The notes under the pieces: model-generated
What the model saw: the letters and a program-made list of their open reading frames with translations, nothing else
Database searches by the model: none
Told to the model about the DNA's origin: nothing
Position numbers and translations under genes: made by a program
Part shown: in pieces, positions 3,801-39,759 of the stretch
Numbering within the stretch: the first letter of the stretch is position 1
Layout of the letters: each line of letters begins with the position of its first letter
From: a virus
IMG/VR virus record: IMGVR_UViG_3300045988_183350
Reading direction: 5' to 3' (one strand)
DNA: 64,000 nucleotides

Positions 3801-3933
3801 TATTATTGCATTTCTATTTAATTCAATTATCCCTGGTCTATTTTTCTAATATAATTTTCTTCTGCAATCTCAATATCTCAATTACATTGGAAAATTCTTG
3901 CTATTATAATTTTCCATTAATAATATTAGTCAT

Positions 3934-4004: not shown

Positions 4005-4766
4005 ATGAATTTAGCAGAAAAAGCGAAGAAGCATCATGCGTTGATGGAAAATACAAAGTCAATTTATACTGACGGAACCGTATTAGAATCAACAATTTAT
4101 CTTGAAGATGCTTTTGACAATAAAAAACAATCATATAGAACATTTAATAATGACATTGTTATTGCTGACCTTGATTCTATTTCAGCTGCTTACAAATATG
4201 AAATGACAGGTCGTGTTGCCTTATTGAATTTTGCGTCATTTACCCATCCTGGTGGTGCGTTCTTGTTTGGTAGTCGTGCTCAAGAAGAAGCCATTTGTCA
4301 TGAGTCAAATTTGTTTGAAATTTTAAATGACGATAAATTTAGTTTGTTTTATCGTATCAATCAAAAGGACCTTGGCAATCACTTATATTACAATCGTGGC
4401 ATTTACTCACCAGGAGTTATTTTAACTCGAGATAATGACGAACACTTTACTGACGTTATTACTGTTGCGGCTCCTAATGCGATGAAAGCTTATGATGGCA
4501 CAGATGATTTTGATGTGAGAAATCTTGTTATTTTGAAATCTCGAATTGATTTTATCTTAAAAATTGCAGAAGCAAATCATGTTGACACATTGATTCTTGG
4601 AGCTTTTGGTTGCGGTGTCTTTGGTCAAAGTCCATATGACGTAGCAACTTGTTTTAAAGACCTCTTGCCTCATTATAACTTTAAAAAAGTTGTCTTTGCA
4701 ATTCCTGATTTTAATGATGGCAATTTAGAAGCATTCAAAGAAGTCTTTACAGAAGAAAATAAATAA
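4005..4766 (+). CDS. Macro-domain protein, bacterial-type poly(ADP-ribose) glycohydrolase-like (DUF2263/TIGR02452 family)
   Basis: Signature 'NFASFTHPGGAFLFGSRAQEEAICHESNL' matches the GGG-x6-8-QEE PARG motif; RBS AAGGA 9 nt upstream. Confidence 0.55.
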   Translation: MNLAEKAKKHHALMENTKSIYTDGTVLESTIYLEDAFDNKKQSYRTFNNDIVIADLDSISAAYKYEMTGRVALLNFASFTHPGGAFLFGSRAQEEAICHESNLFEILNDDKFSLFYRINQKDLGNHLYYNRGIYSPGVILTRDNDEHFTDVITVAAPNAMKAYDGTDDFDVRNLVILKSRIDFILKIAEANHVDTLILGAFGCGVFGQSPYDVATCFKDLLPHYNFKKVVFAIPDFNDGNLEAFKEVFTEENK

Positions 4767-4814
4767 GATATAATAATATTGTAATAAATTATTTATCTGA
4801 GAAAGGTTTTAAAT

Positions 4815-5408
4815 ATGGGATTATTTAGTAGTAATCGAAATGTGTTAGGTGGGCCAATCAAACAGCCACCAATCAATAATGGCGGTGATTATTACAGATG
4901 GGACGTTCTTGTTACCAAAGCATTAGATGCTGTTCATGGTCGTAATGTATTTGATGGCATGTCAAAACGCGGTCCTGTTAAAGTAATTATCACTAGTCTT
5001 GTTGGTTTTGAGCAATTTATTGATGAACACAATTTTGTAAACAGTGGCATTAAGAGTGCGCCTAAAGCACCACTTGGTTATACAGATGCGCACATTTCAG
5101 TTTTGCGTGGTCTTCTTGCAAATAAATTGAAAGACCCTTATGTGATTGAGTTTATTGAAAAGAATAGTTTGGATGGTTTTCAAATTATTTATGACAGTGG
5201 CAATCCTGACGAATTTAACGAAGGTCTTGACGATTTGATTCATTCAGTTAGTGTAAACGTAAATAACGTTGTCGCTGATTATGAGAAAATCGCTAAACGC
5301 TTAGCTGTTCGTCATGAAATCGATATGATTGAAGTTGCCAATGAGTTCAACTTGTGGGTTCGTCTGTCAAAAGAGTTTCAAGAAACTTTGAACGCATATA
5401 AAAATTAA
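4815..5408 (+). CDS. Hypothetical protein
   Basis: 197-aa ORF with RBS GAAAGG; no recognisable motif. Confidence 0.5.
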   Translation: MGLFSSNRNVLGGPIKQPPINNGGDYYRWDVLVTKALDAVHGRNVFDGMSKRGPVKVIITSLVGFEQFIDEHNFVNSGIKSAPKAPLGYTDAHISVLRGLLANKLKDPYVIEFIEKNSLDGFQIIYDSGNPDEFNEGLDDLIHSVSVNVNNVVADYEKIAKRLAVRHEIDMIEVANEFNLWVRLSKEFQETLNAYKN

Positions 5409-10009: not shown

Positions 10010-11110
10010 ATGATACATAAACGATTAAAAGGTAAAATTTTATATAGTTCAGTAATCTTAGGTGTAGCTTTATTTTCAGGAGTTTCGCCTGTAACAGCAT
10101 TAGCTGATGACAATAATTCTGTGAAAATTGACAAAATTATTTCAAGTTCACAAGATATTGACAAGTCGTCAGAGCAATCTTTGAATGCGTCAATTACAAA
10201 ATTGCAAAACTCAATTTCAGATTTGGAGTCTGAAAACAAGCAATTGCAATCTGAGGTTGACAAATTAGCTAAAGATTTGGACAAATTGACAAAAGATATT
10301 ATTGCTCGTAACAAGCAATTAGAGTCACAGGCTGTTGACATGCAAACGTCTACAGGTTCAGATGGCATTATTGGAGCATTGACGTCTTCAAAATCAATTT
10401 CAGATGCAATTTCAAAATTGACAGCTATGGGAACAATCTCGTCTGCAAATGACAATGCCATTAAAGATTTGAAAAAACAAAAGACTGAATTAGAGAAGAA
10501 ACAAAAGGAAAATCAGGCTAAAATCAATGAGATTGTGGAAAACACACAAAAATTGAATGAGGCTAAAGCAAATTTAGACGTAGCTAAACTTGAATTGCAA
10601 GCGAAACAAGAAGAAGCTCGAAAAGCTGACGAAGCTAAAAAAGCTGAAACGGCAAAAGCTTTGAAAGCGGCTGAAAGTAAAGCCGATTCTGTGAAAAATG
10701 CAACAAGTAATCTCGAAGCGCGAAGCAATGAGGCTGTACAACCAGGTGAGGGTAATTTCACGCCTAATTACTCAGGTAATACTTATCCAGCTGGCCAATG
10801 TACTTGGGGCGTGAAATCACTACTTCCTTGGGTTGGTAATTACTGGGGTAATGCAAACCAATGGGGAGCAAGTGCACAAGCTGAAGGACACACTATCGGA
10901 AATACGCCTAAGGTTGGAGCTATTGCCGTTTGGCCTGAGGATGGCGGTGGCTATGGACACGTCGCCGTAGTTTCAAAAGTAAACAGTGCAACGTCTATTG
11001 AAGTATTAGAGTCAAACTATGCAGGTAATATGTCAATCGGTAATTACCGTGGCACATTTAATCCGCAAGCTGTTTGGTCTGGAAGTTCAGTATATTATAT
11101 TTATCAATAA
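10010..11110 (+). CDS. Secreted coiled-coil peptidoglycan hydrolase with C-terminal CHAP domain (PcsB-like)
   Basis: Signal peptide; long heptad/coiled-coil region; C-terminal 'GQCTWGVK...GYGHVAVV' places the Cys/His CHAP catalytic pair. Confidence 0.65.
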   Translation: MIHKRLKGKILYSSVILGVALFSGVSPVTALADDNNSVKIDKIISSSQDIDKSSEQSLNASITKLQNSISDLESENKQLQSEVDKLAKDLDKLTKDIIARNKQLESQAVDMQTSTGSDGIIGALTSSKSISDAISKLTAMGTISSANDNAIKDLKKQKTELEKKQKENQAKINEIVENTQKLNEAKANLDVAKLELQAKQEEARKADEAKKAETAKALKAAESKADSVKNATSNLEARSNEAVQPGEGNFTPNYSGNTYPAGQCTWGVKSLLPWVGNYWGNANQWGASAQAEGHTIGNTPKVGAIAVWPEDGGGYGHVAVVSKVNSATSIEVLESNYAGNMSIGNYRGTFNPQAVWSGSSVYYIYQ

Positions 11111-11137
11111 TTGTCAGAAAATAAAAAATAAATCTTA

Positions 11138-11172
11138 AAAAGGATTTACTTTTTATTTTTATTTGTTATAAT
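11138..11172 (+). promoter_or_regulatory. Conserved promoter (AGGATTTACTTTTT ... TGTTATAAT)
   Basis: Direct motif match. Confidence 0.55.
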
Positions 11173-11207
11173 TAAATAAATACTTAATTAAAAACAAAGG
11201 AAATTTT

Positions 11208-12269
11208 ATGAAGATTAAAAAACTTTTATATAGTACAATGCTTTTAGGAACATTTGCGACAGCAACTTTGCCTAGCGTTCACGCTTTGGCTGAAGACACA
11301 ACTGTCGACAGTATTGTTTCTGAAGCCTCTAATTTGGACCGTTCGTCAATTAGTTCATTGAATGCGTCTATTACAAAGTTGCAAACGGCAATTTCAGATT
11401 TGGAAGCAAAAAACAATGAATTAAAAGCTGAAGTGGACAAGCAAAATGAGGAAGTTGAAGCGTTAGCTAAGAATGTCATTGCACGAACAAAACAATTAAA
11501 CAAACAAGCTGCAGACATGCAAACGACCTCTAAAGGTACATGGCTTGACGCAGTTACTTCGTCGGGGTCATTGTCTGATATATTGTCTAAACTCTCGGCT
11601 ATGGGAACAGTGTCATCGGCAAATAATGACGCGATTACTGATTTGAAAAAACAAAAAGCTGAGCTTGAGAAGAAGCAAAAAGAAAATCAGGATAAGATTA
11701 ATGAAATTAATAGTAACAGTCAAAAGCTTGAAACAACCAAAGCTGATTTGGAAGTAGCTAAACAGGATTTGTTGCATAAGCAAGGTTATAATAATGAAGA
11801 AGAATTGCTCGCGGCAGAACAAAGAGCCAAAGAAGTCAGAAACGGAGCTAATGGTATTCAGGACCGCAGTAATGAAGCTATTCAAGCTGGCGAGGGTAAT
11901 TTCACACCTAATTATGCGGCGAATTCATATCCTGTAGGTCAGTGTACTTGGGGTTGTAAAGTGTTACTTCCTTGGGTCGGTGACTATTGGGGTAACGCAA
12001 ACCAATGGGGAGCAAGTGCTCAAGCAGCTGGACATACAATTAGTTACACACCCAAAGTTGGGGCTGTTATTGTATGGCCTAATGAGGGTGGCGGTTATGG
12101 ACACGTCGCAGTTGTGTCTAAGGTGATTGACGCAAATACCATTGAGGTTTTAGAGGCTAATTACGGTGGAAGTGCGTATGCCGCTGACCCTCGTGGCGTC
12201 GGCAATTATCGTGGGCCTTTTAACTGGCCATCATCTGGTGGTGGCGGTGCCTACTTTATTTACGAGTAG
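11208..12269 (+). CDS. Secreted coiled-coil CHAP-domain peptidoglycan hydrolase, paralog of 10010-11110
   Basis: Same architecture; 'GQCTWGCK...GYGHVAVV'. Confidence 0.65.
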   Translation: MKIKKLLYSTMLLGTFATATLPSVHALAEDTTVDSIVSEASNLDRSSISSLNASITKLQTAISDLEAKNNELKAEVDKQNEEVEALAKNVIARTKQLNKQAADMQTTSKGTWLDAVTSSGSLSDILSKLSAMGTVSSANNDAITDLKKQKAELEKKQKENQDKINEINSNSQKLETTKADLEVAKQDLLHKQGYNNEEELLAAEQRAKEVRNGANGIQDRSNEAIQAGEGNFTPNYAANSYPVGQCTWGCKVLLPWVGDYWGNANQWGASAQAAGHTISYTPKVGAVIVWPNEGGGYGHVAVVSKVIDANTIEVLEANYGGSAYAADPRGVGNYRGPFNWPSSGGGGAYFIYE

Positions 12270-15232: not shown

Positions 15233-15263
15233 TAACCATGAGAGTTCATTATCCTTTTATATT

Positions 15264-15338
15264 GGACCTTTAGCTTAACTGGTTAAAGCATTCAGCTCAT
15301 AACTGAAGGTATGTGGGTTCGAGTCCTGTAAGGTCCAT
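15264..15338 (+). tRNA. tRNA with anticodon CAT (Met / fMet / Ile-lysidine class)
   Basis: Acceptor GGACCTT/AAGGTCC; anticodon arm TTCAG-CTCATAA-CTGAA; TTCGAGT T-loop. Confidence 0.6.
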
Positions 15339-15387
15339 TAACACAGCTTGTGTTAATAAAAATTATTTTAAGAAAAGGAATTTCAAA

Positions 15388-16350
15388 ATGAAAAAATTGA
15401 TTACACTTTCTGCTACTGTACTTATCGCGGTTTCGGCAGCTGCTCCAGTAACGTCAACATTTGCTGACGAAGTTGGCCAATCTAATGTTACTCTTGTTCG
15501 CTTTGGTGGCGGGCATGCAGGTGGCGGACACGTCGGCGGCGGACATGTAGGTGGAGGCCACGTTGGTGGCGGTCGTTCGGGTGGAGGCCACTTTGGTGGT
15601 GGTCATGCAGGTCGTTCGGGTGGCGGACACGCGGGTCGCTCAGGTGGTGGACACTTTGGTGGTTCAAAATCAGGTAAGACTGGCGGGAGCGTGAAATCCG
15701 GCGGTTCAAAATCTGGTAAAACTGGTGGAAGTGTAAAATCTGGTAAAACTGGCGATACCGTTAAGATTAAAGACAAACAAGGACCTAAAGTATCTGATAA
15801 GACAAAATCATCAGGTTCAAAAGTTACGGACAAGTCTGCGTCAACTAAATCATCTGGTAAAACTGGTGATACAGTTAAAATTAAAGATAAAAAAGCTCCA
15901 AAATTGAATAAAGATGAAAAATCTGTATTTAATACTGGCGGTAAAGTCAAAGATGATTCGACATTGAACAAATACGCAAAGCAATCTGATACTACAGAAG
16001 CTAACAAAAATGCGTCACGTATCTTTAATGACAATGGCTATGGGTCATACGGTTATAACTCATATCGCCGTCAATCAATTTTTGACAATCCATGGTTCTG
16101 GATGTACATGATGAATCACAACCGTTCGCGTTATGGTAATGAATCAAATGAGTACAAACAAAATATGGAAAGCAAAGCTTACTTGCAAGGTTACAAAGAT
16201 GGCTACAAGGACGGTGAAAAGAAAGTTGACAACTCTAAAAAGTTGTCAGATTCAAAATCTGAAAAAGGCAAGTTCAGCAATGATACAGAGAAGTCTGATT
16301 ATCTTAAGGGATATAAAGACGGAAATTCAGACGCAAAATCTGGAAAATAA
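15388..16350 (+). CDS. Secreted Gly/His-rich low-complexity protein
   Basis: Start after RBS AAGGAA (track ORF begins at 15313 inside the tRNA); signal peptide; (GGGHxGGGH) repeats; Lys/Ser/Thr-rich repeats. Confidence 0.5.
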   Translation: MKKLITLSATVLIAVSAAAPVTSTFADEVGQSNVTLVRFGGGHAGGGHVGGGHVGGGHVGGGRSGGGHFGGGHAGRSGGGHAGRSGGGHFGGSKSGKTGGSVKSGGSKSGKTGGSVKSGKTGDTVKIKDKQGPKVSDKTKSSGSKVTDKSASTKSSGKTGDTVKIKDKKAPKLNKDEKSVFNTGGKVKDDSTLNKYAKQSDTTEANKNASRIFNDNGYGSYGYNSYRRQSIFDNPWFWMYMMNHNRSRYGNESNEYKQNMESKAYLQGYKDGYKDGEKKVDNSKKLSDSKSEKGKFSNDTEKSDYLKGYKDGNSDAKSGK

Positions 16351-16412
16351 TTTACAAAAAAGGGTTTACTTTTAAATTATTTGTGATATAATATAAAAGT
16401 AAACTTGATTAT

Positions 16413-16502
16413 GGAGACGTACTCAAGTTGGTTAAGAGGACTGTTTGCTAAACAGTTAGGCGGCTGAAAAGTCGCGCGCAGGTTCGAACCCTGTCGTCTC
16501 CG
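16413..16502 (+). tRNA. tRNA-Ser (anticodon GCT), long variable arm
   Basis: Acceptor GGAGACG/CGTCTCC; anticodon loop TTGCTAA; own promoter at 16362-16392. Confidence 0.7.
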
Positions 16503-16594
16503 TTCATAAAATTTTTTAAAAAACTTTTAAAAAAGGGTTTACTGTAAATTGATTTTATGATATAATGTAAAAGAATTGATTGAATGAATTTTAG

Positions 16595-16667
16595 GCGAGT
16601 TAGCTCAGTTGGTAGAGCGTCCGGCTGTTAACCGGATTGTCGCAGGTTCAAGTCCTGCACTCGCCGT
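16595..16667 (+). tRNA. tRNA-Asn (anticodon GTT)
   Basis: GGCGAGTTAGCTCAGTTGGTAGAGC...CTGTTAA...TTCAAGTCC; own promoter at 16535-16565. Confidence 0.7.
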
Positions 16668-16704
16668 TCTTAAAAAGTAATTTTAAGATATACTTATTAT
16701 TATC

Positions 16705-16777
16705 GCAGGATAGTAACAGTTGGTAGTTCGCTAGGCTCATAACCTAGAGGCCGCGGGTTCGAGTCCCGCTCCTGCAA
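16705..16777 (+). tRNA. tRNA with anticodon CAT (Met class, second copy)
   Basis: Anticodon loop CTCATAA; T-arm GGGTTCGAGTCCC. Confidence 0.65.
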
Positions 16778-16866
16778 TTGTCACAGTAAATTAATTTAAA
16801 AAACTTTTAAAAAAGGGTTTACAGCGAATTGATTTTGTGATATAATATTTATATAATTTAATTGCT

Positions 16867-16937
<71 letters not shown>

Positions 16938-17461
16938 ATTATTATAAAAAATAAAAAAACTTGTAAAAACTTTTAAAAAAGGGTTTACAACATGTCAATT
17001 TTGTGATATAATATATGTATATTCGAAATGACATAAGTACGTTCCTATTTGGTAAATATCTTTTTATATTTGAGTTGATTACGTACCGTCAATGAATAAT
17101 AATTTTAAATTTTAGGCACAAAGAGGTTCCTATTTTCTAACAATTTTTAAGCGAAAAATAATATATACCTCTCGCCATTAATCGTAACACTAAATGAAAG
17201 GAAACAAATACGATGATTAAAACAATTATTACTAAAAAACATTTTTGTGATATTCAACCGTCAGCCGTCGATTCACGTGTCTGGGGCGTATTTGGAGTAC
17301 TCAAATTTAAGAACAATCTTTCTCATCGAGAGACATAATATTCGTATAACCTAGTTGGGAGTATAGGCGAAGCCTATATGGGACACTAGCGATAACGAAT
17401 AATTCAATACTCGAGTGAAAGATTGTAAGCAACAGTGTTTACAATCTTTTTATAATACTTT

Positions 17462-17535
17462 GGACCCTTAGCTCAGCTGGTTAGAGCACTCGACTTTTAA
17501 TCGAGGGGTCATAGGTTCGAATCCTATAGGGTCCA
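17462..17535 (+). tRNA. tRNA-Lys (anticodon TTT)
   Basis: GGACCCTTAGCTCAGCTGGTTAGAGC...CTTTTAA...GGTTCGAATCC. Confidence 0.7.
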
Positions 17536-17552
17536 TTTCTCCAAAAATATTT

Positions 17553-17623
17553 GGGGCCTTAGTTTAGTGGGAAAACGTTGCCCTTGCAAGGCGAAATCAC
17601 GAGTTCGACTCTCGTAGGCTCCA
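17553..17623 (+). tRNA. tRNA-Ala (anticodon TGC)
   Basis: GGGGCCTTAGTTTAGTGGG...TTGCC-CTTGCAA-GGCGA...GAGTTCGACTCTC. Confidence 0.6.
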
Positions 17624-17632
17624 TTAAAATTT

Positions 17633-17705
17633 ATCTCGTTAACTCAGCTGGTAGAGTGCTACTCTTACAAAGTAGAAGTCATAGGTTCAAATCCTATACG
17701 GGATA
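17633..17705 (+). tRNA. tRNA-Val (anticodon TAC)
   Basis: Anticodon arm CTACT-CTTACAA-AGTAG; T-arm GGTTCAAATCC. Confidence 0.6.
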
Positions 17706-17751
17706 TTTCCCACATAAAACGTTAATAGTAATGTTTAATGTGGTGTATCAA

Positions 17752-17834
17752 GCACCTATGGTGGAATTCGGCAGACACGCCAGTCTTAGAAACTGGTGTC
17801 TTAGGACGTGCAGGTTCAAGTCCTGCTGGGTGTA
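17752..17834 (+). tRNA. tRNA-Leu (anticodon TAG), long variable arm
   Basis: Anticodon arm CCAGT-CTTAGAA-ACTGG; extra arm; T-arm GCAGGTTCAAGTCCTGC. Confidence 0.55.
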
Positions 17835-17849
17835 TTATAATAATATAGG

Positions 17850-17922
17850 CTTATAGTTTAATCGGGAAAACAATCGCCTCCAAAGCTTTAGTCGTGGGTT
17901 CGAATCCTACTAAGCCTGTTTC
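17850..17922 (+). tRNA. tRNA-Trp-like (anticodon CCA) with a mismatched anticodon stem; possibly non-functional or a pseudo-tRNA
   Basis: Overall similar to Bacillus tRNA-Trp (AGGCTTATAGTTTAATCGGGAAAAC..CTCCAAA..GTGGGTTCGAATCCTAC) but stem ATCGC/GCTTT has 2 mismatches. Confidence 0.45.
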
Positions 17923-17930
17923 ACAATTAT

Positions 17931-17991
17931 GCGGATATAGTTTAATGGTAAAACCTTAGTCTTCCAAACTAAAGTCGCGGGTTCGACTCCC
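17931..17991 (+). tRNA. tRNA-Gly (anticodon TCC)
   Basis: GCGGATATAGTTTAATGGTAAAAC-CTTAGTCTTCCAAACTAAAG-TCGCGGGTTCGACTCCCG. Confidence 0.6.
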
Positions 17992-18010
17992 GTTATCCGC
18001 TTTATATTTA

Positions 18011-18084
18011 CTGGATATAGCACAGCTTGGTAGTGCACGTGGTTTGGGACCACGGGGTCGCAGGTTCGAATCCTGCTATCCAGA
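18011..18084 (+). tRNA. tRNA-Pro (anticodon TGG)
   Basis: Anticodon arm CGTGG-TTTGGGA-CCACG; T-arm GCAGGTTCGAATCCTGC. Confidence 0.65.
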
Positions 18085-18113
18085 TTACTCTAATATAAAG
18101 GAAGTTAATTAAA

Positions 18114-18296
18114 ATGCTTACAACTACTGAAACAATTATTTTATCATTGATTTTAGGATTACTGGTGATGATACCAATTTTAAGTATTTTATTATTGATT
18201 GCCTTAAATACAATTGCCCTTTTAATCATTGGAGTAGTGTTATATATCGTAATTGTTGGATTTTCAATTAAAATGTTCAATTACGATAAAAACTAA
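18114..18296 (+). CDS. Small hydrophobic (two-TM) peptide, tentative
   Basis: 60-aa ORF with RBS AAAGGAAG 8 nt upstream, between tRNA genes; almost entirely Leu/Ile/Val. Confidence 0.3.
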   Translation: MLTTTETIILSLILGLLVMIPILSILLLIALNTIALLIIGVVLYIVIVGFSIKMFNYDKN

Positions 18297-18302
18297 CATT
18301 TT

Positions 18303-18374
18303 TGTCCTATAGTTAAGTTTGGTATAATGCACGACTGATAATCGTGTGTCACTGGTTCAAATCCAGTTGGGACA
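18303..18374 (+). tRNA. tRNA-Ile (anticodon GAT)
   Basis: Anticodon arm CACGA-CTGATAA-TCGTG; T-arm CTGGTTCAAATCCAG. Confidence 0.65.
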
Positions 18375-18380
18375 ATTTAA

Positions 18381-18453
18381 TGACTGTTGGTCTAACGGAG
18401 CATGACGTCCGGCTACGAACCGGGAGATACGGGTTCGATTCCTGTGCGGTCAA
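18381..18453 (+). tRNA. tRNA-Arg (anticodon ACG)
   Basis: Anticodon arm TCCGG-CTACGAA-CCGGG; T-arm CGGGTTCGATTCCTG. Confidence 0.6.
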
Positions 18454-18463
18454 TTAAATTTTG

Positions 18464-18538
18464 GTGGTATAGTGCAAAGTTGGTTGAGCAACCAGACTGT
18501 GAATCTGGCGTTACTCGGTTCAAATCCGAGGTATCACC
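18464..18538 (+). tRNA. tRNA-His (anticodon GTG) with 5' G-1
   Basis: GGTGGTATAGTG...CCAGA-CTGTGAA-TCTGG...CGGTTCAAATCCG; discriminator C. Confidence 0.6.
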
Positions 18539-18551
18539 CTATCAATACTAT

Positions 18552-18638
18552 GGAGTCGTAGACATAATTGGTATTGGGCTGGTCTTGAAAACCAGTGGCG
18601 TGTAAAAGCGTTTGTGGGTTCGAGTCCCACCGGCTCCT
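18552..18638 (+). tRNA. tRNA-Ser (anticodon TGA), long variable arm
   Basis: Acceptor GGAGTCG/CGGCTCC; anticodon arm CTGGT-CTTGAAA-ACCAG; T-arm GGGTTCGAGTCCC. Confidence 0.55.
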
Positions 18639-18646
18639 TAAAATAA

Positions 18647-18718
18647 GCTGAAATAGCTCAACTGGTAGAGCACTCGCCTTGTAAGCGAGCGGTTGCAGGT
18701 TCGATTCCTGTTTTCAGC
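18647..18718 (+). tRNA. tRNA-Thr (anticodon TGT)
   Basis: GCTGAAATAGCTCAACTGGTAGAGC-ACTCGC-CTTGTAA-GCGAG...GCAGGTTCGATTCCTG. Confidence 0.7.
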
Positions 18719-18728
18719 ATTAAATTTA

Positions 18729-18801
18729 GGTCGCATAGCTCAGTTAGGTAGAGCACTCGGTTGAAGCCCGAGGCGCACTGGTTCAATTCCAGTTGTGACC
18801 A
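18729..18801 (+). tRNA. tRNA-Phe (anticodon GAA)
   Basis: GGTCGCATAGCTCAGTTAGGTAGAGC...TTGAAGC...CTGGTTCAATTCCAG. Confidence 0.65.
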
Positions 18802-18891
18802 TAAAATAAATGTAAAAAAACTTTAAAAAAAAGGGTTTACTTTTATTTTAAATATGATATAATATAAATATATATTTTAACTTTAAAATAT

Positions 18892-18964
18892 GGTCTCGTA
18901 GCGCAGCTGGTTAGCGCACTTGCCTGTCACGCAAGGGGTCGCGGGTTCGAATCCCGTCGGGACC
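18892..18964 (+). tRNA. tRNA-Asp (anticodon GTC)
   Basis: GGTCTCGTAGCGCAGCTGGTTAGCGC-ACTTGC-CTGTCAC-GCAAG...CGGGTTCGAATCCCG; own promoter at 18833-18863. Confidence 0.7.
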
Positions 18965-18965
18965 G

Positions 18966-19457
18966 TTCGATTTTAATGTTAACGGCAAATAGACTATTTA
19001 GTCTATAGCTCCGTGAGAGTTTAGCACTCTCTAACATTAAAATCATCTGCCCAGCCTAGGGGCAATACAGTATGGCAACATGCTGAAAGGAATTGTTTGA
19101 GACAACGTTCCGCCAGGTGAAAGCCTGGTTAATTAGGCAATCCATTTTTTAAATCAAACCAATGTAATGCTCCAGAGCTTCCTCACGGGAAGTCCTTCGG
19201 GAACTTTTGGCAGAAAGTCATAAGTTGACTAGCTAGCAAAGTTAGCTTGTGGGCAACGGAGTAGTAAAATGGAAGGATTAGTAGTTAGCCTATGCAGGGG
19301 CTAGCGGAATCCATGGTAATACGTAAATGGTTGGCGGATTATGATAAGTATTATCGAGTTTCATATACCGTAGCGGGTAGCGAAATAATAAATTGGCGTG
19401 GAGCATTTTGTCGGTCAAAAGCTGACGAAACTCCGAGGCACAGCACGTCAATGTCTC
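18966..19457 (+). ncRNA. Unassigned ~490-nt highly structured non-coding segment (candidate ncRNA; identity unresolved)
   Basis: No ORF; many stable hairpins (AGACTATTTAGTCT, GAGAGTTTAGCACTCTC, GGGAAGTCCTTCGGGAACTT); sits inside the tRNA operon. Confidence 0.3.
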
Positions 19458-19535
19458 ATAGGTAATTAGCTCACGTTGGTAGAGCAGTTGACAGTAAATC
19501 GATAGGTCGTGGGTTCGATTCCCACATTACCCTCC
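19458..19535 (+). tRNA. tRNA-like element, anticodon GTA (Tyr), atypical (A33, short variable arm, A1:C72)
   Basis: AGGTAATTAGCTCACGTTGGTAGAGC-AGTTGA-CAGTAAA-TCGAT-AGGTC-GTGGGTTCGATTCCCAC-ATTACCC; the 3' end resembles a tmRNA/tRNA T-arm. Confidence 0.4.
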
Positions 19536-19855
19536 AGGAAAGCGAAAGTCTGTGTCAGACTTAAAAAGAAAGAACATTAAATCCATACAGTTTTTACTGA
19601 ATATGGAGGCGTTACGAGCTCGCAAGCAAGTATCGCTTTAGTCCAAGTATTTCCGCAAACTTGAGCCGTACAACTCAGGTCTAACGAAATCGGGCCGAGT
19701 AAGTTTAGGTCTTAAGAGTTAGCATCACTCGCGGGTTTGTAACCGTAAACGATGAATGTTTGTGAGATACAACTGGGAACAGTTGTGGATAAGTGATTAA
19801 CCAATAAGGTCACTAAAGGCTCACATTTTAATGCCGTAATCTCAGGCATGACTAA

Positions 19856-19937
19856 TCCAGGATAGCCAAGCGGTAAGGCATGGGACTTTGACTCCTAGAC
19901 GCGCTGGTTCGAATCCAGCTCCTGGAATTCCATTTAA
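19856..19937 (+). tRNA. tRNA-Gln (anticodon TTG)
   Basis: Acceptor TCCAGGA/TCCTGGA; anticodon arm TGGGA-CTTTGAC-TCCTA; T-arm GCTGGTTCGAATCCAGC. Confidence 0.55.
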
Positions 19938-20025
19938 AATTAAGAAATGAGGAAACATAAAATGAAAACAAATACAAATACAAAACGATGTTGGACAACT
20001 TTTTAATTTAGTATATTATTAAGTT

Positions 20026-20103
20026 GTCTGTGTAGCCAAGTGGTTTAAGGCGGTGGATTGCAACCCCACTATTTTTTCGCAGGTTCGAATCCTGTCGCAG
20101 ACT
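20026..20103 (+). tRNA. tRNA-Cys (anticodon GCA)
   Basis: Acceptor GTCTGTG/CGCAGAC; anticodon loop TTGCAAC; T-arm GCAGGTTCGAATCCTGT. Confidence 0.5.
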
Positions 20104-24770: not shown

Positions 24771-25457
24771 ATGACAAATAATGCAATTAAAATGACTAAC
24801 GTTGCCAAAACATATAGCAACGGCGTTAAAGCATTGAGTGATATTAATTTAACTGTGAAACCCGGAGAGTTTGTTTATATTACAGGCCAGTCCGGCTCAG
24901 GTAAATCAACACTCATTAAAAGCTTGTATCGCGAGGAACGTGTGGACGGGGGACGTATTACAGTAAATGATTATGACGTCACTGCTTTAGGTGACTCTGA
25001 GATTTATAAACTCAGACAAGAAATCGGTATTGTCTTCCAAGATTACAAACTCCTTAAAAATAAAACTGTTTATGAAAACATTGTTTACACACTTGATGTG
25101 ACGGACCAAGACCCTGAGACGTTTAGAGCTCGTGTTCTTGAGGTCCTTAAATTCGTAGGTCTTGCCCATAAAATTAATGTGTTCCCAACTGAATTGTCTG
25201 GTGGTGAACAACAACGTGTGGCAATTGCTCGTGCGATTGTAAACCAACCAAAGGTTATTATTGCCGACGAACCTACAGGAAATCTTGACCCTGACACGTC
25301 ATGGGACATTATGAACTTGCTTGAGCGAATCAACCTTAATGGGACAACTGTTCTTATGGTAACACACAACGAAAAAATTGTCAGCAAACTTCGCCACCGA
25401 ACATTGACCATTGAGAGTGGCAAAATCAAATCTGATAAGAAAGAAGCAGGTGAGTAA
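24771..25457 (+). CDS. ftsE: Cell-division ABC transporter ATP-binding protein FtsE
   Basis: Walker A GQSGSGKST, ABC signature LSGGEQQRVAIARA, Walker B IIADEPTGNLD. Confidence 0.8.
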   Translation: MTNNAIKMTNVAKTYSNGVKALSDINLTVKPGEFVYITGQSGSGKSTLIKSLYREERVDGGRITVNDYDVTALGDSEIYKLRQEIGIVFQDYKLLKNKTVYENIVYTLDVTDQDPETFRARVLEVLKFVGLAHKINVFPTELSGGEQQRVAIARAIVNQPKVIIADEPTGNLDPDTSWDIMNLLERINLNGTTVLMVTHNEKIVSKLRHRTLTIESGKIKSDKKEAGE

Positions 25458-25459
25458 AT

Positions 25460-26401
25460 ATGTTCAAACGTAAATGCCAAAAAATTTGGAAGCTCGTAAT
25501 TGCATCATTACTAAATCTTAAACGTAATATTTGGATGTCAGTTATCGCAATTACGTCGACCTCAGTAATGCTTGCTTTGGTTGGTCTATTCGTCGGTGTA
25601 CTTGTAAATACGTCAAAACTAACAAATGATATTGAGAACAAAGTAACAATCAATACTTACTTGGCGACGTCTACAGCCGACAATAGTCAAACTATCAAAA
25701 ATGACCAAGGCCAAGAAGTACCAAACACTGAATACCAAAAAATCAAAACTGAACTTGTTCAGATTGAGGGTGTGAAATCAGTTACATGGTCAAGTAAAGA
25801 CGAGCAATTGAAAAAACTTGTCAAAACAATGGGTAAATCATGGGAAAATATTTCAGGTGACGCCAACCCATTGCATGACACTTATATTGTAAAAGTTAAC
25901 AATCCGAATCAAGTGAAATCAGTTGTCGCAAAAATTAAAAAACTAAATAATATTGCAAAAGTTAATTATGGTGGTGAGACTACTGATAAGATTATTAAAA
26001 TTGCAAATATCACCAAAACTTGGGGTGCAATCGGTATTATTATCTTATTATTTGTTGCGGTCTTCCTTATCTCAAATACAATCCGTATTACAATTATGGC
26101 TCGAAAAGATGAAATCCAAATTACACGTTTGGTTGGTGCAAAAAACAGCTACATTCGTTTGCCATTCATCTTTGAAGGTCTCTGGATTGGTATTTTAGGT
26201 TCGGTGATTCCATCGATTCTTATTGGTTGGGTGTATAACGTTATTTATGCAACTTACAGTCAATCAATCGCCGCTCAAAACTTAGCTTTGGTAACACCAG
26301 GTTCAATGGTAACACGAGTTATCTTAGTTATGATTATCTTGAGTTCATTAATTGGTGCCGGCTCATCACTATTTGCAATGCAAAAGCATCTTAAAATTTA
26401 A
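25460..26401 (+). CDS. ftsX: Cell-division permease-like protein FtsX
   Basis: Immediately follows ftsE; N-terminal TM, large extracellular loop, C-terminal TM bundle (FtsX topology). Confidence 0.7.
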   Translation: MFKRKCQKIWKLVIASLLNLKRNIWMSVIAITSTSVMLALVGLFVGVLVNTSKLTNDIENKVTINTYLATSTADNSQTIKNDQGQEVPNTEYQKIKTELVQIEGVKSVTWSSKDEQLKKLVKTMGKSWENISGDANPLHDTYIVKVNNPNQVKSVVAKIKKLNNIAKVNYGGETTDKIIKIANITKTWGAIGIIILLFVAVFLISNTIRITIMARKDEIQITRLVGAKNSYIRLPFIFEGLWIGILGSVIPSILIGWVYNVIYATYSQSIAAQNLALVTPGSMVTRVILVMIILSSLIGAGSSLFAMQKHLKI

Positions 26402-33132: not shown

Positions 33133-33705
33133 TTATAAATCAAATGCCACTGCAGGTTTTTCTTCAGTTTTAATTGCAGGATTAAGTTGTTCAAATGAGT
33201 AATCATTCGCATTACTAATTAAATAATCGATAAAATCACGTTTTGCAGGAATGTGTTGCGTTAAATCATCAGCGGCAACTAACATATTGTTAATGTCATT
33301 GCCGAAAATATCGCCTACAACATAAAAGGTATTATGGGCTGTAACGAATTTTTTAACAACTGACCAAAACCCTTTTTTAAATGTCGATTTAGTATAGGTG
33401 ACCTTATACTTAACGGCAATTCGACGAAATTCATAATTATATACGGCAATCAAATATTTTGTAGTCATATCGTCAAGATAATTTTCATAATTTGCTTTGT
33501 CATTAAGAATTTTTTTCATAACGTCCGCAATTTTACGACATCGTTTTCGATTTTGTTCGTAACCTTCCCAGGATAAATAATTACCACAATAAGGGGCTCG
33601 TTCAAAGCCAAAATAATTAAATTGACATTGAGGCCCATAAGCCTCATCGCTAACACCAGTTAAAATCTCAACCATAAAATCAAGTTTGTATTTTGTATCA
33701 ACCAT
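33133..33705 (-). CDS. Family-B paralog (190 aa), C-terminal tail ...AVAFDL
   Basis: Paralogous to 33724-34302, 34320-34898, 35162-35671 (shared KLDFMVEIL, ANYKKYL, VKYKVTYTS, NTFY, AADDL motifs). Confidence 0.55.
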   Translation of the reverse strand: MVDTKYKLDFMVEILTGVSDEAYGPQCQFNYFGFERAPYCGNYLSWEGYEQNRKRCRKIADVMKKILNDKANYENYLDDMTTKYLIAVYNYEFRRIAVKYKVTYTKSTFKKGFWSVVKKFVTAHNTFYVVGDIFGNDINNMLVAADDLTQHIPAKRDFIDYLISNANDYSFEQLNPAIKTEEKPAVAFDL

Positions 33706-33723
33706 TAGTTTTACCTCCTAAGC

Positions 33724-34302
33724 TTACAATTCTGTAAAATTTGTTGATTCATGTACGTATTCAAGTAATTGACCAGTATTTGCAAATGACCACGCCGTTG
33801 CATTAGCTAACAAAAACTTTATGTCATCAGCTAGCAACAAAGCATGCTGGTTTAAATCGTCAGCCGCAATTAGCGTATTGACCTCACTACCATAAAGGCA
33901 ATCACCTGCAATATAAAATGTATTGTGTTTTAGTACAAAAGATTTCGCATTTTCTGGAAAAAACGTTGGAAAAGTTTCGCTTGTATACGTAACTTTATAT
34001 TTAACGATAAACATACAAAACACTTCATTATAAATATTAAGTAGGTATCGCTCGGTGTTTGCGTTCAAATATTTTTTATAATTAGTCTTGTCTTTGACAA
34101 TTTGATTCATTACTTTTGAAACATTTTCGATTACAATTGAATCGATAGTTTCTAAATACTCATCAAAACCAGCGTCATAGTCCCAGCCATAATAATTAAA
34201 TCGACAACTGCCAAAACCAAAGCCATAACTAAACTCATCCATAGCTGTAACACTCTTTAAAATCTTAACCATAAAATCAAGTTTGTATTCTTTATCAATC
34301 AT
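33724..34302 (-). CDS. Family-B paralog (192 aa), C-terminal tail ...STNFTEL
   Basis: Paralog alignment; RBS AGGAGG. Confidence 0.55.
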   Translation of the reverse strand: MIDKEYKLDFMVKILKSVTAMDEFSYGFGFGSCRFNYYGWDYDAGFDEYLETIDSIVIENVSKVMNQIVKDKTNYKKYLNANTERYLLNIYNEVFCMFIVKYKVTYTSETFPTFFPENAKSFVLKHNTFYIAGDCLYGSEVNTLIAADDLNQHALLLADDIKFLLANATAWSFANTGQLLEYVHESTNFTEL

Positions 34303-34319
34303 TAGTTTTACCTCCTGTA

Positions 34320-34898: not shown

Positions 34899-35161
34899 TG
34901 TATTTACCTCATTTCAATTTATATAATCATTATACCACAATAAATTTAAAAGTAAACCTTTTTAAGTGAATTAATGTAGCCTAAAAGTATGCTATAAACG
35001 GGCTATTGGTCGCTATTTAAAAAATAAGCAATGCTTATTGACCACAATAGCGTTTAAAAGCCCATATCAAGCATATATCGCGGCTAATCTTAAGTCTAGG
35101 CTAAATACATAGGCTGGCTTTAAAACGCGATACGGGCTTAATATGGACTATTTAAAGACGA

Positions 35162-38939: not shown

Positions 38940-38950
38940 AAAATCTTCCT

Positions 38951-39694: not shown

Positions 39695-39759
39695 ATGAAT
39701 TAACCTCATTTCTTATTTAGTCATTTTATTATAACACGTCTTATTTAAAAGTAAACCTT

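What the first reader, a model, noticed from the sequence alone, without database searches (positions are those of the whole stretch)
18966..19535. Unassigned ~490-nt structured RNA between tRNA-Asp and a tRNA-like 3' element
Seen directly: the stretch has no ORF. It is rich in perfect hairpins (AGACTATTTAGTCT; GAGAGTTTAGCACTCTC; TTAATGTTAACGG...CTAACATTAA long-range pairing; GGGAAGTCCTTCGGGAACTT). It ends in a sequence (GGTCGTGGGTTCGATTCCCACATTACCCTCCA) very like the T-arm/acceptor 3' end of tmRNA and tRNAs. Short segments resemble conserved blocks of group I intron cores (AAAGCTGACGAAAC vs Tetrahymena AAGCTGACGGAC; GCTAGCGGAATCC vs GCTAGCGGATG; GTCGGTC) and of RNase P (AGTCATAAG), but not in canonical order. 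Inference: a bona fide structured ncRNA, possibly a divergent tmRNA, an RNase P-like RNA, or a degenerate intron or ribozyme co-transcribed with the tRNA operon. Phage-encoded tmRNA or RNase P-like RNAs are rare and would be notable.
Basis: partly seen in the sequence, partly recalled or inferred. Interest (0 to 1): 0.55.

Follow-up and report, generated by a model that had tools for sequence, protein, structure and literature searches.

The report
GOLLD RNA with an embedded tRNA
The "unassigned structured RNA" is the front two-thirds of a GOLLD RNA, a known giant non-coding RNA of mobile elements that self-assembles into RNA cages, here carrying an odd tRNA-like insert and sitting in a tRNA gene cluster of what is probably a giant plasmid-like element of mouth streptococci.

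Summary
The stretch is real, ORF-poor and strongly structured, but its boundaries and interpretation need correcting. Rfam places a full-length GOLLD 3' domain (RF02032, 165.7 bits, E 1e-44) at 19391-19848. The finding therefore covers the GOLLD 5' region (18967-19390), the first 3'-domain hairpin and a tRNA-like unit (19460-19536) in the GOLLD variable linker. The whole RNA is about 882 nt (18967-19848), between tRNA-Asp and tRNA-Gln in a 22-tRNA array.

Ten variants from 200-410 kb human-metagenome contigs support a 101-pair fold for the 5' core: 11 pairs have compensatory double changes, against 2.3 expected. This 5' domain resembles no other GOLLD 5' region, but GOLLD 5' regions fall into at least 13 sequence classes, so that is normal.

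The embedded tRNA keeps its cloverleaf but not its anticodon (Tyr, His or Asn in close relatives). It alone has A33 and an encoded CCA, so it is probably not an ordinary decoding tRNA.

There is no support for tmRNA, RNase P or a group I intron. This is a new member of a known kind, and interest is moderate.

The parts
18836..18863 (+). Promoter-like site (TTTACT-16 nt-TATAAT with TG extension) upstream of tRNA-Asp. It is the candidate start of the transcription unit tRNA-Asp / GOLLD / tRNA-Gln.
   Evidence: Consensus scan, 10 of 12 matches. Similar sites precede other tRNA groups in the array. This is a consensus match only and has not been shown to be functional.
18891..18966 (+). tRNA-Asp (GTC), directly abutting the 5' end of GOLLD.
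   Evidence: ARAGORN and Rfam tRNA at 69.2 bits. It has no encoded CCA and is followed by T.
18967..19047 (+).
   Evidence: Predicted in the MFE fold. It is absent from at least five relatives (L130/L131, L137, L139-L141) and from L142 by BLAST; L144 is cut off at the contig end. It carries a 60-nt insertion in L127, L132, L134 and L135. Where present, its stems keep pairing through a compensatory change (GAGAG/CUCUC to GAGGG/CCCUC) and G-U changes (read directly from the alignments).
19048..19390 (+). GOLLD 5' domain core: 14 helices closed by a long-range helix (19048-19061 with about 19368-19379), with GNRA-capped hairpins and a central multi-branch subdomain (19141-19273).
   Evidence: RNAalifold consensus on 10 distinct variants gives 101 pairs. 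The pair count shows 99.4% of cells paired, and 11 pairs with changes on both sides against 2.3 +/- 1.3 in shuffles (0 of 500 reach 11) and 0-2 when partners are slid.
19391..19453 (+). First hairpin of the conserved GOLLD 3' domain, with the A-rich loop UCAAAAG at 19415-19421. In env-38 the equivalent L14 adenosines make the intermolecular A-minor bridge B6.
   Evidence: Rfam RF02032 alignment, model positions 1 to about 62, high posterior probability. B6 and L14 are described in PMC12286853 supplementary text and Table 2.
19460..19536 (+). tRNA-like unit embedded in the GOLLD variable linker. It is a class I cloverleaf with anticodon GTA (Tyr), A33, an A1-C72 mismatch, discriminator U73 and an encoded CCA.
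   Evidence: ARAGORN and the Infernal alignment. The anticodon varies among relatives and the acceptor stem covaries. It is the only one of 21 tRNAs with A33 and an encoded CCA.
19537..19848 (+). Remainder of the GOLLD 3' domain. It includes the J13/15 strand (19558-19565) complementary to the L20 strand (19704-19711), the CGCAA loop (19621-19625), and the conserved terminal GTGGATAAG...GTAATCTCA block (19785-19844).
   Evidence: Rfam RF02032, full model 1-416, 165.7 bits against a gathering score of 150, E = 1.1e-44. The 8-bp J13/15-L20 complementarity is kept in 11 family members. The terminal pattern was matched.
19856..19927 (+). tRNA-Gln (TTG), 7 nt after the GOLLD 3' end. RNase P cleavage at its 5' end would define the GOLLD 3' end.
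   Evidence: ARAGORN and Rfam at 64.1 bits. The processing step is an inference.

Best explanation
The finding is the 5' two-thirds of one GOLLD RNA of about 882 nt (18967-19848, + strand). [quoted passage not shown]

Anatomy, as shown here:
- an optional 81-nt 5' module;
- a 343-nt lineage-specific 5' domain whose fold has covariation support;
- the universally conserved 3' domain that Rfam models;
- a tRNA-like cloverleaf in the variable linker, after the first 3'-domain hairpin.

Likely workings, inferred:
- The RNA is transcribed from the promoter-like site at 18836 together with tRNA-Asp and tRNA-Gln.
- It is released by the tRNA-processing enzymes: RNase Z after tRNA-Asp and RNase P before tRNA-Gln.
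- By analogy with GOLLD env-38, which forms a protein-free 14-subunit cage, it assembles into a homo-oligomeric shell. The 3' domains would form the ring and equator contacts, the 5' domains the caps, and the linker, here with its tRNA-like unit, would face the interior.
- The embedded unit is probably not an ordinary decoding tRNA. It is more likely a tethered tRNA-shaped module (cargo, handle or processing signal). Its encoded CCA would protect its 3' side from RNase Z.

The biological role of GOLLD itself remains unknown in the literature. The host replicon is probably a giant plasmid-like 'Inocle' of oral Streptococcus rather than a phage.
For: Identity:
- Full-length RF02032 match at 165.7 bits (gathering score 150), E = 1.1e-44, at 19391-19848. 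Orthologous matches of 165-167 bits occur in relatives.
- The architecture matches published GOLLD env-38: 5' domain residues 1-420, 3' domain 421-833, a disordered internal linker at 497-538, 'tRNAs sometimes present in the linker', and location near tRNA islands (PMC12286853).

5' part belongs to GOLLD and is structured:
- It is contiguous with the 3' domain and of similar size (424 nt against about 420).
- Folding z = -6.1.
- 101-pair consensus, 99.4% of cells paired, 11 compensatory pairs against 2.3 +/- 1.3 in shuffles and 0-2 in slid controls.
- In other GOLLD loci the upstream tRNAs end 800-1000 nt before the 3' end, which is the same overall length.
- It is deleted together with part of the 3' domain in L123.

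Assembly-related features are retained:
- A-rich L14 loop.
- 8-bp J13/15-L20 complementarity in 11 relatives. This pairing is intermolecular bridge B7 in the cryo-EM structure.
- The CGCAA loop.

Embedded tRNA-like unit:
- The anticodon is GTA, GTG, GTT or an aberrant 8-nt loop in relatives that are 87-98% identical. All standalone tRNAs called in each array keep their anticodons and relative order, although L137 and L123 lack some of them.
- A33 is confirmed by Infernal.
- It is the only tRNA with an encoded CCA and without U33.
- Precedent: a pseudo-tRNA inside GOLLD within a Mycobacterium 32-tRNA cluster, with no separate expression detected (PMC6582537).

Host element:
- Relatives lie on contigs of 204-411 kb from human metagenomes.
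- GC is about 33%.
- The window encodes LPXTG, choline-binding, CHAP/PcsB, FtsEX and transglycosylase proteins. Relatives carry IS605/TnpB insertions.
- The family is absent from IMG/VR, GenBank phages, PLSDB and GTDB genomes.
- All of this matches the published Inocle description.
Against: - No expression or end-mapping data were available, so co-transcription, processing and the exact ends are inferred.
- The 5' domain has no detectable similarity to the env-38-type 5' domain or to any of 133 other GOLLD upstream regions. The cap contacts seen by cryo-EM therefore cannot be mapped onto it. Cage formation, and its stoichiometry, are unproven for this member.
- The covariation rests on a shallow family (at least 87% identity, 10 variants), and the tested structure was derived from the same sequences.
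- GOLLD here evolves faster in sequence (87-88% identity) than flanking DNA (92-95%).
- One relative has lost most of it to an IS insertion, so it is dispensable at least in the short term.
- The window's embedded tRNA is the only tRNA-Tyr in the array, so a decoding role for this copy is not excluded.
- Assignment to Inocle rests on matching descriptions, not on sequence comparison.
Confidence: 0.9

Rival explanations
1. The embedded unit is a genuine decoding tRNA. GOLLD acts as its precursor or delivery scaffold: RNase P and 3' processing excise a functional tRNA-Tyr (His or Asn in relatives), splitting GOLLD into two pieces that may stay associated.
For: - The cloverleaf is complete, with good D and T arms and an encoded CCA.
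- The acceptor stem covaries, so the fold is under selection.
- In the window it is the only tRNA-Tyr of the array.
- The literature treats linker tRNAs as phage-encoded tRNAs.
Against: - The anticodon differs among near-identical relatives and duplicates a standalone tRNA-His or tRNA-Asn in the same array. In L130/L131 the anticodon arm is aberrant.
- A33 replaces the near-universal U33 in all variants with the standard 7-nt loop.
- From established knowledge, not tested here: the short variable loop and U73 do not fit bacterial Tyr identity (class II, A73) or His identity (G-1:C73).
- A pseudo-tRNA inside Mycobacterium GOLLD gave no detectable separate transcript.
Confidence: 0.2
2. The 5' stretch (18967-19390) is an independent structured ncRNA that merely neighbours a 5'-truncated GOLLD made of the 3' domain only.
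For: - Rfam covers only 19391-19848.
- The 5' stretch resembles no other GOLLD 5' region.
- A weak promoter-like match (9 of 12) lies at 19360-19389.
Against: - The Rfam model by design covers only the 3' half. The published alignment is also 3'-only.
- All full-length GOLLD loci examined have a 400-500-nt non-coding region before the 3' domain, in at least 13 sequence classes.
- The size matches the env-38 5' domain.
- No terminator separates the two parts.
- They are always adjacent in 10 relatives.
Confidence: 0.06
3. It is a decaying, functionless remnant carried along in a tRNA array.
For: - One relative (L123) has lost window-equivalent 18967-19677 to an IS605 element while keeping both flanking tRNAs.
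- GOLLD diverges faster than its flanks.
- The first module comes and goes among relatives.
Against: - 99.4% of base-pair cells are retained, with 11 compensatory pairs.
- The full-length Rfam match is above the gathering score in the window and three further relatives. One relative, L142, scores 137.3, below the threshold.
- Long invariant single-stranded tracts are present, and the J13/15-L20 pairing is conserved.
Confidence: 0.04
4. It is a divergent tmRNA, RNase P RNA or group I intron or ribozyme.
For: Only short motif resemblances and a tRNA-like T arm and acceptor, noted by eye.
Against: - No Rfam match to these families even at E up to 10. The single exception is a 17-nt T-loop match to permuted tmRNA at E = 9.9.
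- ARAGORN finds no tmRNA or tag peptide.
- The motifs in question lie in GOLLD helices.
Confidence: 0.01

Closest known systems
GOLLD RNA (Rfam RF02032; Weinberg et al. 2009). Reference structure: GOLLD env-38, a 14-subunit D7 nanocage (Kretsch et al., Nature 2025, PMC12286853).
   Same: - Full-length match to the conserved 3' domain, above the gathering score.
- Bipartite layout with a 5' region of about 400 nt.
- A variable linker after the first 3'-domain hairpin.
- An A-rich L14 loop, J13/15-L20 complementarity and a CGCAA loop.
- Location beside tRNA genes on a mobile element.
   Different: - The 5' domain shows no detectable sequence or covariance-model similarity to the env-38 type, which 84 of 120 viral loci share.
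- There is an extra, optional 81-nt 5' module.
- A tRNA-like unit sits in the linker; 0 of 121 other loci sampled have one.
- The host is probably a giant plasmid-like element, not a phage.
- Cage formation is untested for this member.
GOLLD inside horizontally acquired tRNA clusters of Mycobacterium (M. aubagnense '32 tRNA cluster', PMC6582537; Morgado et al. 2020, not held in the library).
   Same: GOLLD sits within a dense tRNA array, with tRNAs on both sides and a predicted pseudo-tRNA inside the GOLLD gene. In both cases the internal tRNA looks non-canonical.
   Different: The host phylum differs (Actinobacteria against a Streptococcus-type element). Here, comparative data add anticodon drift, A33 and an encoded CCA. 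Expression was shown by Northern blot in Mycobacterium but not here.
ROOL RNA, the other phage- and prophage-associated ornate RNA that forms a cage (8 subunits).
   Same: A large non-coding RNA near tRNA islands of mobile elements, with an internal disordered linker. The presumed mode of action is as an RNA-only shell.
   Different: ROOL is unrelated in sequence and fold, and there is no ROOL match in the window. In ROOL the 5' and 3' parts are intertwined, whereas in GOLLD they form separate domains.
Inocle giant extrachromosomal elements of oral Streptococcus (Kiguchi et al., Nat Commun 2025, PMC12340149). This concerns the host replicon, not the RNA.
   Same: The size class (245-368 kb against contigs of 204-411 kb here), about 32% GC, about 89% within-group identity, IS richness, LPXTG and transglycosylase genes, a human saliva source and absence from isolate genomes all match.
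   Different: No sequence comparison with deposited Inocles was possible, and the marker gene InoC was not looked for in this 64-kb window. The paper does not mention GOLLD at all (0 occurrences).

Membership tests
GOLLD RNA (RF02032) | Covariance-model match to the conserved 3' domain at or above Rfam's gathering score, over the full model. | tested here: met
   165.7 bits against a gathering score of 150, E = 1.1e-44, model positions 1-416 of 416, at 19391-19848. Relatives score 165.3-167.4 bits.
GOLLD RNA (RF02032) | A structured 5' region of about 400 nt directly preceding the 3' domain (bipartite RNA of about 800 nt or more). | tested here: met
   424 nt (18967-19390) with folding z = -6.1. 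The 343-nt core has a 101-pair consensus and 11 compensatory pairs, with 0 of 500 shuffles reaching that number. Total length is 882 nt.
GOLLD RNA (RF02032) | 5' domain homologous to the structurally solved env-38-type 5' domain. | tested here: not met
   There is no nhmmer hit of the env-38 5' sequence or of its iterated profile to the window. The family profile HMM and covariance model R1 hit no other GOLLD locus. This is not a disqualifying feature. The literature calls the 5' region 'less conserved', and 116 loci fall into at least 13 5'-sequence clusters.
GOLLD RNA (RF02032) | Complementarity between J13/15 and loop L20 (the pseudoknot in Rfam; intermolecular bridge B7 in the cryo-EM structure). 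| tested here: met
   8 contiguous pairs, 19558-19565 with 19704-19711. They are kept in all 11 family members checked, through one-sided G-U/A-U changes. The family shows no double compensatory change at these pairs.
GOLLD RNA (RF02032) | Variable linker after the first 3'-domain hairpin, sometimes holding a tRNA. | tested here: met
   The insert lies between model positions 108 and 109 and contains the cloverleaf at 19460-19536. The same arrangement is seen in all relatives.
GOLLD RNA (RF02032) | Genomic association with tRNA islands of phages, prophages or other mobile elements. | tested here: met
   GOLLD lies inside a 22-tRNA array (15263-20103), flanked by tRNA-Asp and tRNA-Gln. The replicon type (phage or plasmid-like) is not settled.
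GOLLD RNA (RF02032) | Protein-free homo-oligomeric nanocage (14 subunits in env-38). | not testable with these tools
   This needs in vitro transcription followed by mass photometry or cryo-EM. Only sequence features of three 3'-domain bridges (B6, B7, B8) could be checked, and they are present.
GOLLD RNA (RF02032) | Expression as a discrete large RNA. | not testable with these tools
   No transcriptome data were accessible.
Canonical elongator tRNA (for the embedded unit) | Cloverleaf recognised by tRNA models. | tested here: met
   ARAGORN calls tRNA-Tyr GTA. RF00005 scores 48.2 bits against a gathering score of 29.
Canonical elongator tRNA (for the embedded unit) | U33 in the anticodon loop, and an anticodon conserved among orthologues. 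| tested here: not met
   The loop is CAGUAAA, with A33, while all 20 standalone tRNAs have U33. The orthologues' anticodons are GTA, GTG, GTT or an 8-nt loop.
tmRNA | tRNA-like domain plus a tag-peptide reading frame, detected by ARAGORN or Rfam tmRNA models. | tested here: not met
   ARAGORN finds no tmRNA in the window. Rfam gives only a 17-nt match to permuted tmRNA at 11.3 bits, E = 9.9. As a positive control, ARAGORN does call a tmRNA in locus L122.
RNase P RNA / group I intron | Match to the Rfam covariance models of these families. | tested here: not met
   No match at gathering thresholds or at E up to 10 within 18800-19950.

The most novel reading that the evidence does not exclude
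In this lineage GOLLD carries a dedicated tRNA-shaped module that is not a decoding tRNA. Its cloverleaf, acceptor stem and encoded CCA are under selection, while the anticodon drifts (always G34-U35-N36, with A33). It would stay covalently tethered inside an RNA shell whose caps are built from a 5' domain unrelated in sequence to the one solved by cryo-EM. If so, the shell may have a different stoichiometry. Its function may be to present or sequester a tRNA mimic, for example as a decoy or handle for a tRNA-binding enzyme, an anticodon nuclease or the ribosome, on a giant plasmid-like element of oral streptococci rather than a phage.
Probability: 0.3. Interest if true: 0.6.

Novelty: new member of a known kind. 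Interest (0 to 1): 0.4.

Why it matters
GOLLD is one of the largest and most elaborate bacterial non-coding RNAs, and it recently became one of the first natural RNA-only cages to be seen. Its function is still unknown.

This locus adds three useful things:
1. A GOLLD in what appears to be an Inocle, a newly described giant extrachromosomal element of human oral Streptococcus. The paper describing Inocles does not mention GOLLD. This widens GOLLD's range beyond phages and prophages and ties it to a cultivable host genus.
2. A family of 10-11 natural variants that includes a natural deletion and an optional 5' module. They offer ready-made constructs for testing which parts are needed for assembly.
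3. Comparative evidence that the tRNA inside the linker is selected for its shape but not for its anticodon. This bears directly on the published idea that the cage encloses covalently linked tRNAs.

For genome annotation, it shows that the Rfam model covers only the 3' half. The 5' 400-nt region of any GOLLD will therefore look like an 'unassigned structured RNA'.

Tried and rejected
- Rfam at a permissive threshold for tmRNA, RNase P, group I intron and SRP found nothing. ARAGORN found no tmRNA.
- BLAST of the RNA against GenBank phages and PLSDB plasmids matched only the tRNA segment. A 12.7-kb flank had no phage match.
- Two exact-pattern scans of IMG/VR from the 5' domain gave no hits. 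A third pattern was mis-registered by me and would not have matched even the window, so that scan was wasted. One gapped pattern failed on the window and was not used further.
- BLASTN, nhmmer, a profile HMM and a covariance model of the 5' core against 133 other GOLLD loci gave no similarity. The env-38 5'-domain profile against the window also gave none.
- A helix-by-helix comparison with an RNAalifold model of the env-38-type 5' domain was inconclusive. Both are multi-branched with GNRA loops, but no correspondence could be established.
- L143 matched the metagenome pattern by chance: it has no GOLLD and no BLAST similarity.
- L125, a distant relative of the element (34% protein identity), has no GOLLD in the 16 kb fetched.
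- The 'tmRNA' annotated next to GOLLD in Brevundimonas phage Bajun was suspected to be a mis-annotated GOLLD 5' domain. It is a separate permuted tmRNA on the other strand.
- Bridge B9 of env-38 could not be mapped onto this sequence, because that part of the Rfam alignment is poorly aligned.
- Morgado et al. 2020 (PMC7549688) is not held in the library.
Full report
**1. What is at the coordinates**

The stretch 18966-19535 lies inside a dense, same-strand array of tRNA genes (15263-20103). ARAGORN of them. Rfam adds one that ARAGORN misses, at 18463-18539. The stretch has no sizeable ORF: the longest overlapping ORFs are 57 and 53 aa.

The part between tRNA-Asp and the GOLLD match (18967-19390) folds far better than shuffled controls: -139.4 against -105.6 +/- 5.6 kcal/mol, z = -6.1. 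The 'tRNA-like 3' element' is a complete cloverleaf, called tRNA-Tyr (GTA) by ARAGORN at 19460-19536 and matched by Rfam tRNA at 48.2 bits.

**2. Identification**

A gathering-threshold Rfam scan of the whole window gives one non-tRNA match. It is GOLLD (RF02032), 165.7 bits against a gathering score of 150, E = 1.1e-44, covering the full model (1-416) at 19391-19848 on the + strand.

The tRNA-like unit falls in an insertion between model positions 108 and 109. That is the variable linker that follows the first hairpin of the 3' domain.

A permissive scan of 18800-19950 (E up to 10) adds nothing relevant. There is no tmRNA, RNase P, group I intron or SRP match, except a 17-nt T-loop match to permuted tmRNA at E = 9.9. 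ARAGORN finds no tmRNA.

**3. Why the unassigned 5' part belongs to GOLLD**

The Rfam model, and the alignment published with the cryo-EM study, cover only the 3' half of GOLLD. The cryo-EM paper (PMC12286853) describes GOLLD env-38 as follows:
- a 5' domain (residues 1-420) that forms the caps of the cage;
- a universally conserved 3' domain (421-833);
- a disordered linker (497-538) that points into the interior;
- GOLLD genes that lie near tRNA islands of phages and prophages.

The window matches this layout: 424 nt of structured RNA, then the 3' domain, with a tRNA in the linker. The total is 882 nt (18967-19848).

In 134 other GOLLD loci that I collected (120 from IMG/VR; 13 from GTDB genomes), tRNAs end either 800-1000 nt upstream of the GOLLD 3' end or start within 100 nt downstream. 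Their overall lengths are therefore similar.

**4. Relatives and covariation**

The window has no close relative in GenBank phages, PLSDB or IMG/VR. I reached relatives in two ways. One was through homologues of the protein encoded inside the tRNA array, followed by contig look-ups. The other was a 5'-domain pattern scan of metagenomes.

Besides an identical copy (L121), there are ten further distinct GOLLD variants, 87-98% identical to each other, on contigs of 204-411 kb. All keep the order tRNA-Asp / GOLLD with internal tRNA / tRNA-Gln.

- present in the window;
- present with a 60-nt insertion in four relatives;
- absent in at least five, plus L142 by BLAST (L144 is cut off at the contig end).

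The remaining 343-nt core (19048-19390) is always present. RNAalifold on 10 distinct sequences gives 101 pairs in 14 helices, closed by a long-range helix. The controlled count gives:
- 99.4% of cells paired, against 34-45% when partners are slid by 1-3 columns;
- 11 pairs changed on both sides, against 2.3 +/- 1.3 in shuffles (0 of 500 reach 11) and 0-2 in the slid versions.

Caveats: the family is shallow, and the structure was derived from these sequences.

Sequence conservation is not the argument. GOLLD is 87-88% identical between the window and its relatives, while the flanking DNA is 92-95% identical. The RNA changes faster than its surroundings but keeps its pairs.

**5. How this 5' domain compares with other GOLLDs**

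The env-38 sequence finds near-full-length 5'-domain matches in 81 of the 120 viral loci, rising to 84 after one profile iteration. It does not match the window.

Conversely, none of the following finds anything outside the family:
- BLASTN and nhmmer with the window's 5' part;
- a profile HMM of the family;
- a covariance model of the central subdomain (R1, 134 positions, 41 pairs). This search included the Streptococcus suis, S. porci, S. porcorum and S. minor genome loci.

Clustering the 5' zones of 116 loci gives at least 13 sequence clusters: one of 76, two of 16 and 14, and ten singletons. A lineage-specific 5' domain is therefore the rule for GOLLD outside the aquatic env-38 type, not an anomaly.

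A helix-level comparison with an RNAalifold model of the env-38 type was inconclusive.

**6. Features of the 3' domain tied to assembly**

Supplementary Table 2 of PMC12286853 and the main text list the intermolecular bridges of the env-38 cage. Three can be checked by sequence:
- **B6.** The A-rich loop of the first 3'-domain hairpin is present as UCAAAAG at 19415-19421.
- **B7.** The J13/15-L20 pairing, drawn as a pseudoknot in Rfam, is present as 8 contiguous pairs (19558-19565 with 19704-19711). It is kept in all 11 relatives checked through one-sided changes.
- **B8.** The CGCAA loop, whose GC self-pairs, is present at 19621-19625.

The cap bridges (B2-B5) lie in the env-38-type 5' domain and cannot be mapped. 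Whether this member forms a closed 14-subunit cage cannot be said.

**7. The embedded tRNA-like unit**

Across relatives, the standalone tRNAs that are called in each array keep the same anticodons and relative order, although L137 and L123 lack some of them. Only the embedded unit changes:
- GTA (Tyr) in the window;
- GTG (His) in eight relatives (L142 by ARAGORN), duplicating the standalone tRNA-His;
- GTT (Asn) in L135, duplicating the standalone tRNA-Asn;
- an aberrant 8-nt loop in L130/L131.

Its acceptor stem covaries (A1-C72 and G2-C71 in the window; G1-C72 and U2-A71 elsewhere), and its D and T arms are kept.

Its anticodon loop is C-A-G-U-N-A-A, so position 33 is A. Infernal confirms this. 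All 20 standalone tRNAs have U33, none encodes CCA, and all are followed by U. The embedded unit alone encodes U73-CCA.

None of 121 other GOLLD loci in my sample has a tRNA in the linker zone, and the positive controls worked.

There is a published precedent. The GOLLD in the 32-tRNA cluster of Mycobacterium aubagnense contains a predicted pseudo-tRNA with no detectable separate expression (PMC6582537).

My reading is an inference: the fold is selected, the decoding identity is not. From established work on B. subtilis RNase Z (my own knowledge, not tested here), an encoded CCA blocks RNase Z. That would help keep the unit attached to the 3' domain.

A decoding role for the window's copy is not excluded, because it is the only tRNA-Tyr in the array.

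**8. Transcription and processing (inferred)**

A promoter-like site (TTTACT-16 nt-TATAAT with a TG extension) lies at 18836-18863, just upstream of tRNA-Asp. Nothing convincing as a terminator lies between 18966 and 19856. GOLLD starts directly after tRNA-Asp and ends 7 nt before tRNA-Gln. RNase Z and RNase P processing of the flanking tRNAs would therefore release it with defined ends.

**9. Dispensability**

In L123 an IS605-family element (TnpB plus its RNA, Rfam RF03014) sits immediately after tRNA-Asp. It replaces the equivalent of window 18967-19677, while both flanking tRNAs are intact. GOLLD is thus not required for short-term persistence of the element.

**10. The host replicon**

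Observations on the window and its relatives:
- The window is about 33% GC.
- It encodes a primase-like protein, an ATP-cone protein, two PcsB/CHAP hydrolases, FtsE/FtsX, a choline-binding glucanase, an LPXTG protein, a flotillin-like protein and transglycosylase-like proteins. No phage structural gene was recognised among the roughly 20 proteins I scanned.
- Relatives lie on contigs of 204-411 kb from human metagenomes, carry IS605 insertions and differ by about 6-12%.
- The family is absent from IMG/VR and from 185,579 species-representative genomes.

All of this fits the description of Inocles (PMC12340149):
- circular plasmid-like elements of 245-368 kb in oral Streptococcus;
- about 32% GC and about 89% within-group identity;
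- rich in IS elements, with LPXTG, sortase and transglycosylase genes;
- lost on culture and absent from isolate genomes.

That paper does not mention GOLLD. I could not compare sequences, so this assignment is probable, not shown.

**11. Verdict**

The general inference (a structured ncRNA in a tRNA operon) is right, and the specific candidates are wrong. The object is a GOLLD RNA: a new member of a known kind, with a lineage-specific 5' domain, an optional 5' module and an unusual tRNA-shaped insert, on a probable Inocle. Interest is moderate. The identification is routine with Rfam, but the natural variant series and the anticodon-drifting internal tRNA bear on the open question of what GOLLD cages do.

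Noticed in passing
window 18463-18539 (+): Rfam calls a tRNA here (36.0 bits, anticodon GTG = His) that ARAGORN misses in the window. ARAGORN does call tRNA-His at the orthologous place in relatives. The array therefore has 22 tRNAs, not 21.
   Followed up: partly
L123 15263-16785 (also L123 2545-4021 and 13433-14815): Three copies of an IS605-family element, 78-80% identical to each other, sit in and near the tRNA array of one relative. Each has TnpB and a downstream Rfam 'Transposase-1' RNA (RF03014). One copy replaces most of GOLLD, giving a natural knockout.
   Followed up: partly
window 19048-19848 compared with its flanks: GOLLD is 87-88% identical between the window and its relatives, while the flanking genes and tRNAs are 92-96% identical. 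The other relatives are 92-98% identical to each other across GOLLD, so the window's copy is the outlier. This could reflect relaxed or diversifying selection, or recombination.
   Followed up: partly
window 15388-16350 (+): A protein gene with no Pfam match sits inside the tRNA array and is hypervariable among relatives: 263-327 aa, 33-98% identity, often alignable over only about 64% of its length. In some relatives a DUF1642 gene is inserted next to it.
   Followed up: no
window 10010-12269 and 24771-26401 (+): The element encodes two paralogous PcsB-like coiled-coil/CHAP hydrolases (about 68% nucleotide identity to each other) plus FtsE- and FtsX-like proteins. Together these make up a complete FtsEX-PcsB-type cell-division hydrolase module on a mobile element.
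   Followed up: no
L132 11023-11099 and L137 10950-11029: ARAGORN calls a tRNA with a 4-base anticodon (aatt, 'tRNA-???') in two relatives, at a position where the window has none. It may be a pseudo-tRNA or a frameshift-suppressor-like tRNA.
   Followed up: no
window 33133-35671 (-) and 38172-39709 (-): There are tandem paralogous genes: four ORFs of 169-192 aa at 26-44% identity, and two ORFs of about 250 aa at 43% identity. Their function is unknown. The many 120-160-aa ORFs at 49-63 kb are mostly not detectably paralogous.
   Followed up: partly
L122 (Brevundimonas phage vB_BgoS-Bajun, ON529858.1) 3485-3903 (-) and 4407-4839 (+): This phage has a GOLLD whose first hairpin is nearly identical to the window's. 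About 500 nt away on the other strand lies a permuted tmRNA with tag peptide VAANDNAPFAVREAIAA, and tRNAs lie nearby. It is a real case of a phage tmRNA next to a GOLLD.
   Followed up: partly
L001-L120 and L145-L157: The 5' regions of GOLLD loci fall into at least 13 sequence clusters. One cluster of 14 and one of 16 are neither the env-38 type nor the type described here. Rfam models none of these 5' domains, so each would appear as an 'unassigned structured RNA' in a scan like this one.
   Followed up: partly
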